The translations under genes and the position numbers were made by a program. From NCBI RefSeq assembly GCF_056746865.1, contig NZ_CM163382.1: 64,000 bases of DNA. One strand, 5' to 3'. Positions 1 through 3,499 of this stretch are shown here, in pieces (the first letter of the stretch is position 1; each line of letters starts with the position of its first letter). The notes beneath the pieces were generated by a model. That model made no database searches. It had not been told where the DNA came from and worked only from the letters and a program-made list of their open reading frames with translations.

Positions 1-1084
1 TTGCGCCCAGCATCACCTGAATCAGGTCATACGCTTCGAGATACTTAACGCCAAACACCAGCGAAATGAGCGGCTTGCCGACGATCAACACCGCGAGCGC
101 CACCAGAATACCGATTCCGCCCGCCAGTAAACCGGACTTCACACCTAACAACCACGGTCTGGTGGTGCGCGGATCTAAACGCATCACCTCTGGGTAAAAA
201 CTTTTACCAAGCAAACCCGCTGGCGTTCCGGCGGCGTCGAAGAATGTCATGGCGATTTTAAATAACCCGGCGGCAGCGGGTCCTAACACGATCCCCACCA
301 ACACTGTGCTGCACGAGTTACGCGCCGACCAGATGGAGTGGGCAATGTTGGTTGACCAGACAAAACTCCACGCGCCTTTAATGTGTCGGGCAGACTCAAA
401 CAGATTCAATTTGAAGGCGTTATGGATATTTCGGCGGCGTAATTCGCGCGCGGCAAACCACCAGTACATGGTGCCGCCAACCAGATTCGACACGTACCAG
501 GCAATAACAAAACCCGCAAAACCAAAGTCAAAATACCAGGCTACGACGCTCCCCGCTGCGCGCAGAAAAGGTTTCGTCGCCTGCTGTACAGCAATTAAAT
601 CGAAGCGATCTACCGCACGCAGAATGCCGGTCGGCGTGGAGGAAGCCATTGAAGGAATGAGCGTGCAATAGAGCGCTGCCAGCCAAAAACTTTGGTCATC
701 CAGACCTAATGAATGGGAAAGGAATGGCAGTAAGGCAATGCCACCGACAATCGCCACCGCGCCGCTGACGATATCCAGCGAGAAGGAAAATGAGACGACA
801 TTGCGGAATTGCTGCGGATTATTGTTGGTTAATGCTGGTGTTCCGTACTGAACCACCAGTTGCCATGTCTGAAACTTAATAAAATCGCTGATCGACTTGG
901 CGTACGATTGCACAATCACCAGTACGCCAAACATGGCGGGCGTCATCCCTTTACCGGCACACGAGAGCGCCAACAGACCCAGCAAGGCGCTCACGACATT
1001 ACTGGAGCCTAACCAGGCGCTATTGCGAATAATGGTGCGAAACGCGCCATCTGCAAACCAATGTTTGATGTTAAAACCCGCCAA
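1..1084 (-). CDS. yghQ: Inner-membrane MOP/Wzx-like polysaccharide transporter family protein, partial (stop lies beyond window start); start uncertain (TTG at 1084 or ATG at 946)
   Basis: Minus-strand frame is open from 1084 to position 1 with hydrophobic membrane-protein translation; not in ORF track because no stop inside window; synteny with yghR/yghS. Confidence 0.7.
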   Translation of the reverse strand, partial: MAGFNIKHWFADGAFRTIIRNSAWLGSSNVVSALLGLLALSCAGKGMTPAMFGVLVIVQSYAKSISDFIKFQTWQLVVQYGTPALTNNNPQQFRNVVSFSFSLDIVSGAVAIVGGIALLPFLSHSLGLDDQSFWLAALYCTLIPSMASSTPTGILRAVDRFDLIAVQQATKPFLRAAGSVVAWYFDFGFAGFVIAWYVSNLVGGTMYWWFAARELRRRNIHNAFKLNLFESARHIKGAWSFVWSTNIAHSIWSARNSCSTVLVGIVLGPAAAGLFKIAMTFFDAAGTPAGLLGKSFYPEVMRLDPRTTRPWLLGVKSGLLAGGIGILVALAVLIVGKPLISLVFGVKYLEAYDLIQVMLGA

Positions 1085-1129
1085 TTCAGCCTGACCTTAT
1101 CGTTGATAGTAAAAAGTATCCCGCCAGCC

Positions 1130-1888
1130 TTAAGTTAAACTTCGGCGGTCAGAAACGATGGCAACCAGAGAAACCGCCTTCTGTGCCTGTTCCAGCACTT
1201 CGCTGTAGGGCGCTCTGGAATCAATCTCAAGAATTTTTGTGCCGTTATAGCCAATCTTCGACATGACACCGATTTTGTCCTGCAGCTCGGCATAGTCATG
1301 GTCAGGCTTGCGGGAGATGGCAGTCTCAATATCAATGCCCAGGCGAATAATTAATTCCGGGCGATATTGCGCCATTTGTTGGTATAAACGCCGTTCGCGC
1401 TGCGCCAGAAACATGCTGATTTTCCCGGTCGCACGTTCGACGCCAATCCCCGGTCCATCATAATAAAAGCCCGAAATTTCAGCCTGCGGGAAGCGATCGC
1501 TGACCACCAGAACGCCACTTTGCGCCAGTCGCTGAACCTTGCGTAGATTCGCCATTCTTCGCAGCGAGAAGCAGTACATAATCACCGCCGCCCATAGCGC
1601 CGGAGATTTGGTTTTCATGCTTTGGGTTTTCGAGGATTTGGCCGCCAGTCGCCGTTCCAGCCAGACGCCAACCAACGGCAATCGTTTGATTTTGTCGCCG
1701 TCTTCGCCGGAGAGCAGCCCCAGATAGCGCCGCTCGGTTTGCCAGTGTTGTTGCAGCGATTTCACCAGGTCGGTGGTCAGTGTGGATTTACCGGTGCCAT
1801 CACACCCGACCACCGCAATCAGCCCCGGAATGTAGTTGGGCTGCGGCGCGGTTGTACTATTAACAGTTTGAGTTTGTAGTGCATCCAT
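1130..1888 (-). CDS. yghR: P-loop nucleotide kinase-like protein (thymidylate-kinase-like fold; Walker A GCDGTGKST and DRF motif)
   Basis: 252 aa ORF; motifs read directly; length and sequence match remembered YghR. Confidence 0.9.
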   Translation of the reverse strand: MDALQTQTVNSTTAPQPNYIPGLIAVVGCDGTGKSTLTTDLVKSLQQHWQTERRYLGLLSGEDGDKIKRLPLVGVWLERRLAAKSSKTQSMKTKSPALWAAVIMYCFSLRRMANLRKVQRLAQSGVLVVSDRFPQAEISGFYYDGPGIGVERATGKISMFLAQRERRLYQQMAQYRPELIIRLGIDIETAISRKPDHDYAELQDKIGVMSKIGYNGTKILEIDSRAPYSEVLEQAQKAVSLVAIVSDRRSLT

Positions 1889-1919
1889 TCGTTAAATCAT
1901 CCCCTATCCATTTTGGTGA

Positions 1920-2633
1920 TCAGGAAAGCGCGGCGTGAATTGCGCGTTGTGACGCTTGCAGAATTTCATCGGCGGGGTGTCGCCCATCCAGTTCAAGGAT
2001 CTTTGCGCCATTGAATGTCAGTTGCGGCGTAACGGCGATTTTTTCCTGTAACGCTGCCAGTTGGTGGTCAGGTTTACGCGCAAACGCGGTTTGTTCATCA
2101 ATGCCAAGACGAATCAACAATACGGGCAAATAAGATGCCATCCATTGGTACAGCTTCAGCTCGCGCTGCCTTAACATTTTTATCCAACCGTTACCGCCCG
2201 TGGTTTTTGCCAATTGCGGGCCATCAAAGCGAAACCCCGGCACTTCAACCTGCGGGTAGCGGTCGGTGATGAGCAGAAAGCCTTGCTGGCTTTTACACAA
2301 CATTTTGCGAAACTTGTACGCCCGCCAGCAGGAAAGCAGATAGATAACCAGTGCAGTAATATTGCCAGGCGGTGTTGAGGGCTTTTCGTGCACATGTGCC
2401 GCTTTACTTCGCAGATAACGCCCAAAAGGTGCGCCAATAACAGGGAGCTGTGAAATCCATTCGCCAATTCGCCCGGACGATTGCCCGAGATAAATGTGTT
2501 CTGTTGGCATTCTTGCTGCCAGTTCATTTACCAGGCTTGCCGTGAGGGTCGATTTACCTGAACCATCACATCCTACAATGGCAATAACACGCACTGGCGT
2601 GGAATTAATTATTGACATATTACGTTGATTCAC
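1920..2633 (-). CDS. yghS: P-loop nucleotide kinase-like protein, paralog of YghR (GCDGSGKST, DRY)
   Basis: 237 aa ORF; paralogous motifs to neighbouring ORFs. Confidence 0.9.
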   Translation of the reverse strand: MNQRNMSIINSTPVRVIAIVGCDGSGKSTLTASLVNELAARMPTEHIYLGQSSGRIGEWISQLPVIGAPFGRYLRSKAAHVHEKPSTPPGNITALVIYLLSCWRAYKFRKMLCKSQQGFLLITDRYPQVEVPGFRFDGPQLAKTTGGNGWIKMLRQRELKLYQWMASYLPVLLIRLGIDEQTAFARKPDHQLAALQEKIAVTPQLTFNGAKILELDGRHPADEILQASQRAIHAALS

Positions 2634-2806
2634 GAAAAACCCGGCAGTAAATAATGTATTGAATATTACGTGGTCCGTGCTCAGAATATCCGTTCAACCT
2701 TATTGTGACAATGGTTAATTGTGACATTGACCTGAATTACGCTTTCATAAAAACATATTAACCAAATAAATATTTTTAATGGATATTTAAATTAAAGGAT
2801 ATATTC

Positions 2807-3499
2807 ATGCAGTCAATAACACCTCCATTAATTGCCGTTATTGGTAGCGATGGTTCAGGCAAGTCAACGGTGTGTGAACATCTTATTACCGTTGTCGAAA
2901 AATATGGTGCTGCCGAAAGAGTTCATTTAGGAAAACAGGCCGGAAATGTCGGTCGTGCAGTGACAAAATTACCGTTGATGGGAAAATCCTTACATAAAAC
3001 AATTGAACGAAATCAGGTGAAAACAGCAAAAAAATTGCCTGGACCAGTTCCGGCGCTGGTAATTACAGCGTTTGTCGCCCGTCGCTTACTGCGCTTTCGT
3101 CATATGCTTGCCTGTCGTCGTCGCGGGTTAATTGTTCTAACCGACCGTTATCCTCAGGACCAAATTCCTGGCGCTTACGATGGTACGGTGTTCCCACCTA
3201 ACGTTGAAGGTGGTCGTTTTGTCTCATGGCTGGCAAGCCAGGAACGTAAAGCGTTTCACTGGATGGCGAGCCATAAGCCTGATCTGGTCATCAAACTCAA
3301 TGTTGACCTTGAAGTTGCCTGTGCACGTAAACCCGACCATAAACGGGAATCGCTGGCGAGGAAGATTGCCATAACGCCACAGTTAACCTTTGGTGGTGCA
3401 CAACTGGTTGATATCGATGCCAATCAGCCACTGGAACAGGTGTTGGTTGATGCAGAAAAAGCGATTACGGATTTTATGACCGCGCGTGGTTATCACTAG
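2807..3499 (+). CDS. yghT: P-loop nucleotide kinase-like protein, third paralog ([12 protein letters not shown]), divergent from yghS
   Basis: 230 aa ORF with same motif set. Confidence 0.9.

What the first reader, a model, noticed from the sequence alone, without database searches (positions are those of the whole stretch)
1..3499. yghQ-yghR-yghS / yghT: three paralogous thymidylate-kinase-like P-loop proteins clustered with a flippase-like membrane protein
YghR, YghS and YghT all carry a Walker A of the form G-(C/S)-D-G-(S/T)-G-K-S-T and a downstream D-R-(Y/F)-P motif, a combination characteristic of thymidylate/nucleoside-monophosphate kinases. Two are co-transcribed with a MOP/Wzx-like transporter and the third is divergent. 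To my knowledge none has an assigned substrate. Three diverged kinase-like paralogs beside a lipid-linked-glycan-type transporter looks like an uncharacterised nucleotide or sugar-phosphate modification and export module.
Basis: partly seen in the sequence, partly recalled or inferred. Interest (0 to 1): 0.55.

Follow-up and report, generated by a model that had tools for sequence, protein, structure and literature searches.

The report
Orphan kinases of E. coli's sphingolipid locus
The three look-alike "thymidylate kinase" genes yghR, yghS and yghT and the flippase gene yghQ are real, and they are the uncharacterised end of a ceramide (sphingolipid) synthesis and export gene cluster that most E. 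coli carry but K-12 has half deleted; they most likely add phosphate groups to that lipid.

Summary

In a strain 100% identical over the first 5.2 kb of the window, and in 4066 of 5426 complete E. coli genomes, yghQ is preceded by a CHAD-fold protein, a YtfJ-like protein, LptF/LptG paralogs, spt, acpR, cerR, aasR and yghO. This is the ceramide locus characterised in E. coli BL21. K-12 lost it through an IS5-linked deletion.

The three kinases form three clean orthologous clades and travel together across Proteobacteria. Of 52 loci, 46 hold all three and 38 hold spt within 10 kb.

Best explanation (confidence 0.55): they are head-group kinases of an anionic sphingolipid that YghQ flips and LptF2G2 extracts. 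No substrate has been published. Interest is moderate to high.

The parts
1..1084 (-). yghQ, 5' 1084 nt (residues 1-361 of 449). A MOP/Wzx-type (Polysacc_synt) inner-membrane flippase. The gene is cut by the start of the window.
   Evidence: Translation. Annotated full length in the identical strain, L001 14735-16084. Pfam Polysacc_synt 1.1e-8 and Polysacc_synt_3 1e-7. NCBIfam MOP flippase 1.9e-8, below the cut-off.
1130..1888 (-). yghR, a 252-aa kinase of thymidylate-kinase fold (paralog clade R). Walker A at 1781-1807, DRFPQ at 1484-1498, RKPDH at 1298-1312.
   Evidence: Forms its own orthologous clade in a tree of 204 sequences.
1920..2633 (-). yghS, a 237-aa kinase of thymidylate-kinase fold (paralog clade S) and the first gene of the yghS-yghR-yghQ operon. 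Walker A at 2547-2573, DRYPQ at 2250-2264, RKPDH at 2064-2078.
2634..2806 (.). 173-bp divergent intergenic region, 29.5% GC, between yghS and yghT. It presumably holds both promoters. It contains a TTGTGACA direct repeat at 2703 and 2719, which also reads as an ACAAT-N5-ATTGT palindrome.
   Evidence: One weak sigma-70-like match at 2711-2683 on the minus strand. The first repeat copy is partly conserved in related genera.
2807..3499 (+). yghT, a 230-aa kinase of thymidylate-kinase fold (paralog clade T), divergently transcribed. Walker A at 2843-2869, DRYPQ at 3143-3157, RKPDH at 3326-3340.
   Evidence: AF2 model with pLDDT 92.4. Fold searches.
3510..3538 (.). 12-bp-stem hairpin between the convergent 3' ends of yghT and pitB. 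It is terminator-like.
   Evidence: Consensus scan only.

Best explanation
yghQ-yghR-yghS and yghT are the head-group and flipping part of a bacterial sphingolipid pathway.

Proposed pathway:
1. Upstream genes just outside the window (aasR, acpR, spt, cerR, yghO) make dihydroceramide on the cytoplasmic face of the inner membrane. The activities of the E. coli BL21 Spt, AcpR and AasR have been shown experimentally.
2. YghR, YghS and YghT are three non-redundant ATP-dependent kinases of thymidylate-kinase fold. They phosphorylate this lipid at different positions or successively, for example the hydroxyl first and then the phosphate, as NMP kinases do. The product is an anionic, lipid-A-like phosphosphingolipid.
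3. A CHAD-fold protein encoded next to yghQ may bind the phosphate-rich head group or a polyphosphate donor.
4. YghQ flips the product to the periplasmic leaflet.
5. The LptF/LptG paralogs extract it for transport to the outer membrane.

Shown here or in the literature: the gene content and its conservation, the kinase fold, intact catalytic motifs in all three clades, and the activities of Spt, AcpR and AasR. Inferred: that the kinases' substrate is the sphingolipid, the number and position of the phosphates, and the roles of the CHAD-like protein and YghQ.
For: 1. Context. In the strain identical to the window, the gene order is yghO | aasR-cerR-acpR-spt | lptG2-lptF2-ytfJ-like-CHAD-like-yghQ-yghR-yghS | yghT. 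The 7.66-kb aasR-to-CHAD-like segment is present at >=80% coverage in 4066 of 5426 complete E. coli genomes. K-12 has an IS5 element and a deletion there.

2. Literature.
- E. coli BL21 ECD_02850-02854 are assigned to dihydroceramide synthesis, and Spt, AcpR and AasR are active in assays (PMC9386255).
- The Caulobacter sphingolipid locus likewise combines ceramide genes, a MOP-type flippase (CC_1166), LptF2/G2 and head-group enzymes including a ceramide kinase (PMC11324152).
- LptF2/G2 are needed for sphingolipid transport, and the E. coli UTI89 locus is drawn as homologous (bioRxiv 10.64898/2026.04.12.717747).

3. Conservation. Among 52 loci of >=18 kb around YghT orthologs (one genome per species), 46 hold all three paralogs, 38 hold spt, 44 hold the CHAD-like gene, 33 hold yghQ and 30 hold lptF2/G2 within 10 kb. 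In Serratia, Mangrovibacter and Pantoea, yghT sits between the two halves of the locus.

4. Three functions. R, S and T form three pure clades. Each clade keeps G-x-D-G-x-G-K, D-R-x-P, D125, E146, R-K-x-D-H and K186 at >=95%.

5. No other head-group enzyme is annotated in the E. coli locus: no glycosyltransferase, nucleotidyltransferase or CDP-alcohol transferase.

6. Neighbours in non-enteric loci are homologs of enzymes that modify lipid phosphates. An LmtA-like lipid A 1-phosphate O-methyltransferase (E 1.6e-34) lies directly upstream of yghT in 14 loci. A secreted PAP2/LpxE-like phosphatase lies directly downstream in 24 loci. An OlsC/LpxO-like acyl hydroxylase occurs in 13 loci. A DAGK-type lipid kinase lies beside the module in L006.

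7. Membrane link. Some homologs carry an N-terminal transmembrane anchor. Others are fused to a MOP flippase or a GT4 glycosyltransferase.

Against: - No biochemical or lipidomic evidence exists for any product of the E. coli locus beyond ceramide intermediates. The substrate is inferred from gene neighbourhood only.
- The wider kinase family (2146 representatives at E<=1e-3) also occurs in Wzx/Wzy polysaccharide clusters with glycosyltransferases and sulfotransferases (L088). The fold is therefore not specific to sphingolipids, and the substrate could be another lipid-linked or soluble phospho-compound.
- 13 of the 52 loci show no ceramide gene within 10 kb.
- The E. coli proteins have no predicted membrane segment.
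- The CHAD assignment rests on fold plus 1 of 18 family members matching Pfam CHAD. There was no PDB sequence hit.
- The equivalence of conserved R93 to the phosphate-binding Arg of Tmk rests on spacing only. hhalign places it 2 residues off.
Confidence: 0.55

Rival explanations
1. The kinases act on a soluble nucleotide, nucleotide-sugar or sugar phosphate, and YghQ exports a lipid-linked glycan built from it.
For: The fold and motifs are those of NMP/dTMP kinases. YghQ belongs to the Polysacc_synt/Wzx family. Distant homologs sit in Wzx/Wzy clusters with GT4, Wzy_C, an ATP-sulfurylase-domain protein and a sulfotransferase, or are fused to GT4 (P0247).
Against: The E. coli-type locus has no glycosyltransferase, no initiating phosphotransferase, no polymerase and no nucleotidyltransferase. 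The trio co-occurs with ceramide genes in 39 of 52 loci and with enzymes homologous to lipid-phosphate modifiers. The segment that binds the nucleotide in Tmk is replaced by a longer segment with its own invariant G42/G46/P56/G59.
Confidence: 0.12
2. A polyphosphate-linked system. The kinases are PPK2-like enzymes that make or use inorganic oligo- or polyphosphate together with the CHAD-like polyP-binding protein. Their association with the sphingolipid genes is indirect, for example phosphate economy (pitB is adjacent).
Confidence: 0.12
3. The P-loop proteins are not small-molecule or lipid kinases. They are ATP-dependent accessory or regulatory subunits of the flippase YghQ or of the LptF2G2 extractor.
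For: The locus has no LptB paralog. Kinase domains are fused to the C-terminus of MOP flippases in some bacteria.
Against: In Caulobacter, LptF2/G2 bind the housekeeping LptB (bioRxiv 10.64898/2026.04.12.717747). The proteins have a kinase fold with the DR(Y/F) acceptor motif, not an ABC or AAA+ fold. Three conserved paralog clades fit three chemistries better than one motor.
Confidence: 0.08
4. The database annotation is right: YghS and YghT are extra dTMP kinases.
For: RefSeq names them 'dTMP kinase'. The best fold and profile matches are Tmk.
Against: Scores are 24-32 bits against the TIGR00041 cut-off of 83.25. Pfam Thymidylate_kin gives E 0.013-0.43. The genuine tmk lies in the yceG-tmk-holB operon. 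From my own knowledge, tmk is essential in K-12 although yghR, yghS and yghT are intact there. The genomic context is lipid, not DNA precursor.
Confidence: 0.02

Closest known systems
Thymidylate kinase (Tmk; Pfam PF02223, NCBIfam TIGR00041)
   Different: Fails the family thresholds. The segment between the P-loop helix and the DRY strand is longer and carries family-specific invariant residues. It has an extra invariant RKPDH motif. The context is a lipid locus and the real tmk is elsewhere.
Caulobacter crescentus sphingolipid locus CC_1152-CC_1168 (ceramide genes, flippase CC_1166, LptC2/F2/G2, CpgA-C head-group enzymes)
   Same: The same five ceramide genes, a MOP-type putative flippase and LptF/LptG paralogs in one locus. 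The product there is an anionic phosphosphingolipid needed for outer-membrane stability (PMC11324152).
   Different: The E. coli-type locus lacks the DAGK-type ceramide kinase (CC_1160), the Tam41-like, CDP-alcohol-transferase and nucleotidyltransferase genes, and LptC2. In their place it has three Tmk-fold kinases, a CHAD-fold protein and a YtfJ-like periplasmic protein.
Bacterial ceramide kinase CpgB/CC_1160 (DAGK_cat family)
   Same: It would perform the analogous step, phosphorylation of ceramide, at the start of head-group synthesis (PMC11324152).
   Different: An unrelated fold (DAGK catalytic domain against P-loop NMP-kinase fold). In L006 a DAGK_cat kinase and two YghR/T-like kinases coexist, so they need not be redundant.
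CHAD proteins in operons with PPK2-type polyphosphate kinases
   Same: A stand-alone CHAD-fold protein is encoded beside P-loop kinases of the Tmk/PPK2 structural class (PMC6537752).
   Different: Here the pair is embedded in a membrane-lipid synthesis and export operon. The kinases are closer to Tmk than to PPK2. Only 1 of 18 family members reaches Pfam CHAD.
LpxK, the P-loop lipid A 4'-kinase (recalled from memory; a lead only)
   Same: A P-loop kinase that phosphorylates a membrane lipid precursor on the cytoplasmic face before flipping and Lpt transport.

Membership tests
dTMP kinase (TIGR00041 / PF02223) | Score at or above the curated family threshold | tested here: not met
   TIGR00041 gives 32.3, 24.3 and 25.8 bits against a cut-off of 83.25. 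Pfam Thymidylate_kin gives i-E 0.092, 0.013 and 0.43.
dTMP kinase (TIGR00041 / PF02223) | P-loop GxxGxGK[ST] with an acidic third residue, and a DR[YH] motif | tested here: met
   GCDGTGKST, GCDGSGKST and GSDGSGKST; DRF, DRY and DRY. These align to GLEGAGKTT and DRH of E. coli Tmk.
dTMP kinase (TIGR00041 / PF02223) | Thymidylate-kinase three-dimensional fold | tested here: met
dTMP kinase (TIGR00041 / PF02223) | Conserved dTMP-binding segment between the P-loop helix and the DRY strand | tested here: inconclusive
   hhalign leaves a 12-residue gap here, and the family has its own invariant G42, G46, P56 and G59. R93 lies 21 residues before R114, like the phosphate-binding Arg of Tmk, but is aligned 2 residues off. 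No ligand docking was possible.
dTMP kinase (TIGR00041 / PF02223) | dTMP phosphorylation activity | not testable with these tools
   Needs an enzyme assay or complementation of a tmk mutant.
Proteobacterial sphingolipid (ceramide) synthesis and transport locus | Physical linkage to spt, acpR, aasR, cerR and the bCerS gene (yghO) | tested here: met
   The genes are adjacent in the strain 100% identical to the first 5.2 kb of the window, though this lies outside the window itself. spt is within 10 kb in 38 of 52 species loci.
Proteobacterial sphingolipid (ceramide) synthesis and transport locus | LptF/LptG paralogs and a MOP-type flippase in the locus, as in Caulobacter | tested here: met
   LptG2 scores 309 bits and LptF2 318 bits, both above their cut-offs. 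YghQ matches Polysacc_synt. Comparison with PMC11324152.
Proteobacterial sphingolipid (ceramide) synthesis and transport locus | A sphingolipid product that depends on these genes | not testable with these tools
   Only the E. coli Spt, AcpR and AasR activities are published (PMC9386255). No data exist for yghQ, yghR, yghS or yghT.
MOP/Wzx flippase (YghQ) | Polysacc_synt family membership | tested here: met
   Pfam PF01943 at 1.1e-8 and PF13440 at 1e-7. The NCBIfam MOP flippase model gives only 33.8 bits against a cut-off of 273, so YghQ is a divergent member.
CHAD domain (neighbouring 274-aa protein, outside the window) | CHAD fold | tested here: met
CHAD domain (neighbouring 274-aa protein, outside the window) | Sequence match to Pfam CHAD (PF05235) | tested here: inconclusive
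   1 of 18 family members matches at 2e-5. The E. coli protein does not match. There is no PDB sequence hit.
CHAD domain (neighbouring 274-aa protein, outside the window) | Polyphosphate binding | not testable with these tools
   Needs a binding assay as in PMC6537752.
DAGK-type bacterial ceramide kinase (CpgB) | DAGK_cat catalytic domain | tested here: not met
   There are no DAGK hits. The proteins are P-loop kinases of NMP-kinase fold.
Polyphosphate kinase 2 (PPK2) | Closest structural class is PPK2 | tested here: not met
Known anti-phage defence systems (PADLOC) | Match to a defence-system protein model | tested here: not met
   Only P-loop-length matches at E 2e-4 to 9e-4, with no domain-level stretch.

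The most novel reading that the evidence does not exclude
Three conserved kinases of thymidylate-kinase fold, working with a CHAD-fold (polyphosphate-binding-type) protein, build a pyro- or oligophosphate head group directly on ceramide. The result would be a ceramide di- or triphosphate or a ceramide bisphosphate. This would be a previously undescribed class of lipid-A-mimicking anionic sphingolipid, made by most E. coli and many other Proteobacteria and exported through a Wzx-like flippase and an LptFG paralog. It would also define a new family of lipid kinases unrelated to DAGK-type ceramide kinases.
Probability: 0.2. Interest if true: 0.9.

Novelty: new variant of a known kind. Interest (0 to 1): 0.62.

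Why it matters
E. coli is usually taught as an organism without sphingolipids. That view comes from K-12, which has deleted half of this locus. Three quarters of the complete E. coli genomes searched carry the full 13-gene cluster, and its ceramide-forming enzymes are active.

The four genes in this window are the part of the cluster that nobody has assigned. They are also the only candidates in it for making the head group and for flipping the lipid. Working them out would:
- define the actual sphingolipid of E. coli and related enteric bacteria, including gut commensals and pathogens whose sphingolipids could interact with host signalling and with polymyxin-type antibiotics;
- probably reveal a new lipid-kinase family;
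- correct thousands of 'dTMP kinase' annotations;
- explain what the K-12 remnants yghO, yghQ', yghR, yghS and yghT are.

Tried and rejected
- Sequence family searches gave only sub-threshold dTMP-kinase and generic P-loop matches (Pfam; NCBIfam; PDB profile). A fold search was needed to place the proteins.
- The PADLOC defence models gave nothing meaningful, so the phage-defence idea was dropped.
- Rfam found no RNA element within 1-5400.
- The promoter/terminator scan found no more sites than shuffled sequence does.
- I tested whether the CHAD-like protein is homologous to the ~260-aa N-terminal domain fused to kinases in distant homologs. phmmer and hmmsearch gave no hit, and no CHAD-like gene lies in those distant loci. 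The idea was rejected.
- Literature searches found no functional work on the kinases (yghR/S/T by name, 'thymidylate kinase' with bacterial sphingolipid, CHAD with sphingolipid, UTI89 with sphingolipid). The K-12 phenotype papers on yghQ (chlorhexidine MIC, silkworm virulence) used the truncated locus and say little about the native function.
- I could not inspect model coordinates, for example the position of R93 relative to the P-loop.
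Full report
**1. What is in the sequence**

The first 5.2 kb of the window is E. coli chromosome, 100% identical to strain SCU-313.
- yghR at 1130-1888 (-), yghS at 1920-2633 (-), yghT at 2807-3499 (+).
- These are followed by pitB (3548-5047, -) and gss.
- yghQ starts at a TTG at 1084 and runs off the start of the window, so only 361 of its 449 codons are present.

The three small proteins are clear paralogs: R/S are 45% identical (E 9e-65) and R/T are 34% identical (E 6e-48). 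Translation of the exact coordinates confirms three shared motifs in each protein:
- Walker A: G-[CS]-D-G-[ST]-G-K-S-T.
- D-R-[YF]-P-Q.

yghS, yghR and yghQ are separated by 31 and 45 bp on one strand. This arrangement suggests co-transcription, but that was not tested. yghT is divergent across 173 bp of 29.5% GC. YghQ matches Pfam Polysacc_synt and Polysacc_synt_3, the MOP/Wzx-type family.

**2. What kind of proteins the three are**

Sequence libraries do not place them.
- Pfam gives only generic P-loop hits, and Thymidylate_kin is not significant (E 0.013-0.43).
- NCBIfam's dTMP-kinase model scores 24-32 bits against a cut-off of 83.
- A profile search of PDB sequences reaches thymidylate kinases only at E about 3e-3.

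Structure does place them.
- An AlphaFold2 model of YghT, built on 46 diverse homologs, has pLDDT 92.4.
- The Foldseek top 50 are all Tmk.
- A profile comparison with E. coli Tmk gives 95.6% probability. It aligns the P-loop, the DRY/DRH motif and the helix before the lid.

Membership in the dTMP-kinase family is not met.
- The thresholds fail.
- The segment where Tmk binds dTMP is replaced by a longer one with its own invariant glycines and proline.
- The real tmk sits in the yceG-tmk-holB operon.
- From my own knowledge, tmk is essential in K-12 even though yghR, yghS and yghT are intact there.

**3.

The window begins inside yghQ. In SCU-313 the genes beyond it are:
- a 274-aa hypothetical protein;
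- a YtfJ-family periplasmic protein;
- paralogs of LptF and LptG;
- serine palmitoyltransferase (spt), an acyl carrier protein, an NAD-dependent reductase and a fatty acyl-AMP ligase;
- divergently, yghO.

These last five are the genes ECD_02850-02854 of E. coli BL21(DE3), assigned to dihydroceramide synthesis. Spt, AcpR and AasR have been shown to be active (PMC9386255).

In K-12 an IS5 element and a deletion have removed everything from aasR to the 3' end of yghQ. K-12 matches begin at window base 16. The deleted 7.66-kb segment is present at >=80% coverage in 4066 of 5426 complete E. coli genomes. The intact locus is therefore the normal state, and the K-12 'y-genes' are remnants.

The Caulobacter sphingolipid locus has the same logic: ceramide genes, a MOP-type flippase candidate, LptF2/G2 and head-group enzymes (PMC11324152). 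A 2026 preprint shows that LptF2/G2 are required for sphingolipid transport and draws the E. coli UTI89 locus as homologous. None of these papers discusses the kinases. Searches by gene name and by topic found no substrate assignment.

**4. Conservation**

A profile search of 1.84 billion representative proteins finds 2146 relatives at E<=1e-3. A scan of one genome per species returned 79 loci around YghT orthologs, from Enterobacterales, Xanthomonadales, Beta- and other Gammaproteobacteria, Myxococcales and Alphaproteobacteria.

I mapped the 13 E. coli locus proteins onto these loci with tblastn. Of the 52 loci with at least 18 kb:
- 46 contain all three paralogs;
- 38 contain spt;
- 44 contain the 274-aa protein;
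- 33 contain yghQ;
- 30 contain lptF2/G2.

The gene order changes between genera but the genes stay together. In Serratia, Mangrovibacter and Pantoea, yghT lies between the export operon and the spt operon.

In a neighbour-joining tree of 204 sequences the R, S and T types form three pure clades. Each clade keeps the full set of putative catalytic residues at >=95%. The triplication is therefore old, all three look catalytically competent, and they are not redundant. Natural S-R and T-R fusion proteins exist.

**5. The 274-aa partner**

CHAD domains bind inorganic polyphosphate and occur as stand-alone proteins in operons with polyphosphate kinases or phosphatases (PMC6537752). Here a CHAD-fold protein is encoded between a lipid flippase and LptFG paralogs, and it co-occurs with the kinases even where spt is not within reach.

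**6. Other neighbours point to a phosphorylated lipid**

In the non-enteric loci yghT is flanked by two recurring genes, and a third recurs nearby:
- Directly upstream, in 14 loci, lies a homolog of LmtA, the Leptospira lipid A 1-phosphate O-methyltransferase (E 1.6e-34).
- Directly downstream, in 24 loci, lies a secreted PAP2 phosphatase whose best NCBIfam hit is the lipid A 1-phosphatase LpxE.
- An OlsC/LpxO-type lipid acyl hydroxylase occurs in 13 loci.

One alphaproteobacterial-type contig has two of the kinases, the flippase and the CHAD-like gene next to a DAGK-type lipid kinase and a weak Pfam PMT_2 glycosyltransferase-family match. A few homologs carry an N-terminal membrane anchor.

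More distant homologs (~500 aa) have an unassigned ~260-aa N-terminal domain.
- They lie next to Polysacc_synt flippases in Wzx/Wzy clusters.
- Some are fused to a MOP flippase (P0266, P0223) or a GT4 glycosyltransferase (P0247).

They also show that the wider family is not restricted to sphingolipids.

**7. Most likely mechanism**

Shown:
- the locus makes ceramide precursors (literature);
- the three proteins have a kinase fold with intact motifs;
- they are inherited together with ceramide, flippase and Lpt-paralog genes.

Inferred:
- The E. coli locus encodes no glycosyltransferase, nucleotidyltransferase or CDP-alcohol transferase, so the three kinases are the only candidates for building a head group.
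- They would phosphorylate ceramide on the cytoplasmic face. Thymidylate-type kinases add phosphate to a phosphate, and the related deoxynucleoside kinases add it to a hydroxyl. The trio could therefore give a bis-phosphorylated or pyro-/oligophosphorylated ceramide.
- Such a head group would fit the CHAD-fold partner, the LmtA-like and LpxE-like neighbours, and export by LptFG paralogs that normally handle bis-phosphorylated lipid A.
- YghQ would flip the product, LptF2G2 (with LptB, as in Caulobacter) would extract it, and the YtfJ-like protein may act in the periplasm.

I give 0.55 to the general claim that the kinases act on the sphingolipid head group, and about 0.2 to the oligophosphate version.

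**8. Rivals**

The locus has no glycan machinery.
- A polyphosphate system only loosely tied to the lipid: 0.12. Tmk is the closer fold, and the operon linkage is to membrane transporters.
- ATPase accessory subunits of the flippase or LptF2G2: 0.08. The fold is a kinase fold, and LptB serves LptF2G2 in Caulobacter.
- True dTMP kinases, as RefSeq names them: 0.02.
- Defence-system membership was tested and not found.

**9. Verdict**

The functional reading needs to be redirected from glycan or nucleotide to sphingolipid.

The locus as a ceramide locus is already known. The role of yghQ, yghR, yghS and yghT, the CHAD-fold partner, and the wide conservation of the kinase trio were not found in the literature searched. 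I rate it a new variant of a known kind (a bacterial sphingolipid head-group pathway using a non-homologous, probably new lipid-kinase family), with interest 0.62.

Noticed in passing
L001 13911-14735 (-), just outside the window start, between yghQ and the ytfJ-like gene: A 274-aa 'hypothetical protein' with no family match has a confident CHAD-domain fold, the polyphosphate-binding type. It co-occurs with the kinase trio in 44 of 52 species loci. Invariant residues include R88, K92, H93, R95, H105, H193, R196, H237 and D238.
   Followed up: yes
window 2703-2726: TTGTGACA occurs twice, 16 bp apart, and the pair also reads as an ACAAT-N5-ATTGT palindrome. It lies in the AT-rich yghS-yghT divergent promoter region. 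The first copy is kept in Escherichia, Pseudocitrobacter, Citrobacter amalonaticus, Shimwellia and Hafnia. It may be an operator, but no regulator gene lies in the locus.
   Followed up: partly
window 1-16; L002 6875-9069: K-12-type strains match the window only from base 16. In them an IS5 element and a deletion have removed aasR through the 3' end of yghQ. K-12 yghO, yghQ', yghR, yghS and yghT are therefore remnants of the sphingolipid locus.
   Followed up: yes
L059 9234-9974 and 10814-11353; L058 10809-11345; L063 5245-6003 and 11713-12252: In non-enteric loci yghT is bracketed by an LmtA-like lipid A 1-phosphate O-methyltransferase homolog (14 loci) and a secreted PAP2/LpxE-like phosphatase (24 loci). 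An OlsC/LpxO-like acyl hydroxylase occurs in 13 loci, and a secreted protein that resembles DUF2147 by eye (no family match) in 4.
   Followed up: partly
P0163, P0169, P0185, P0266, P0223 (proteins); L088 5721-9482: About a third of the top 150 representatives (52) are ~500-aa proteins. Their kinase domain is preceded by an unassigned ~260-aa domain (motif YCHWKSN...G.TDLDLLVD, no Pfam hit). Some are further fused to a MOP flippase. They sit in Wzx/Wzy polysaccharide clusters.
   Followed up: partly
P0121, P0122, P0124: Natural single-chain fusions of two kinase paralogs (S-R, T-R, T-T/S) suggest that the paralogs work as hetero-oligomers. They could also be assembly or gene-calling artefacts.
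   Followed up: no
window 3548-5047 (-): pitB, a low-affinity phosphate transporter, lies convergent to yghT, separated by a 12-bp-stem hairpin at 3510-3538. This adjacency is kept in Escherichia, Pseudocitrobacter, Citrobacter and Hafnia. Whether it relates to phosphate supply for the kinases is unknown.
   Followed up: no
window 8300-8376, 19800-19923, 20057-20127, 25908-25971, 57627-57775, 61242-61392, 61619-61768: Rfam matches elsewhere in the window, all unrelated to the finding: naRNA4 (REP-derived) at two sites (three matches, one site on both strands), STnc490, ES173, an FMN riboswitch and two SIB antitoxin RNAs.
   Followed up: no
L005 (Pseudomonas graminis contig) 6031-10708: A degraded copy of the locus: yghO, aasR, a truncated cerR (139 aa) and yghT only, next to AAA-ATPase and eCIS_core (Pfam family label) genes. 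It looks like a decayed horizontal acquisition.
   Followed up: no
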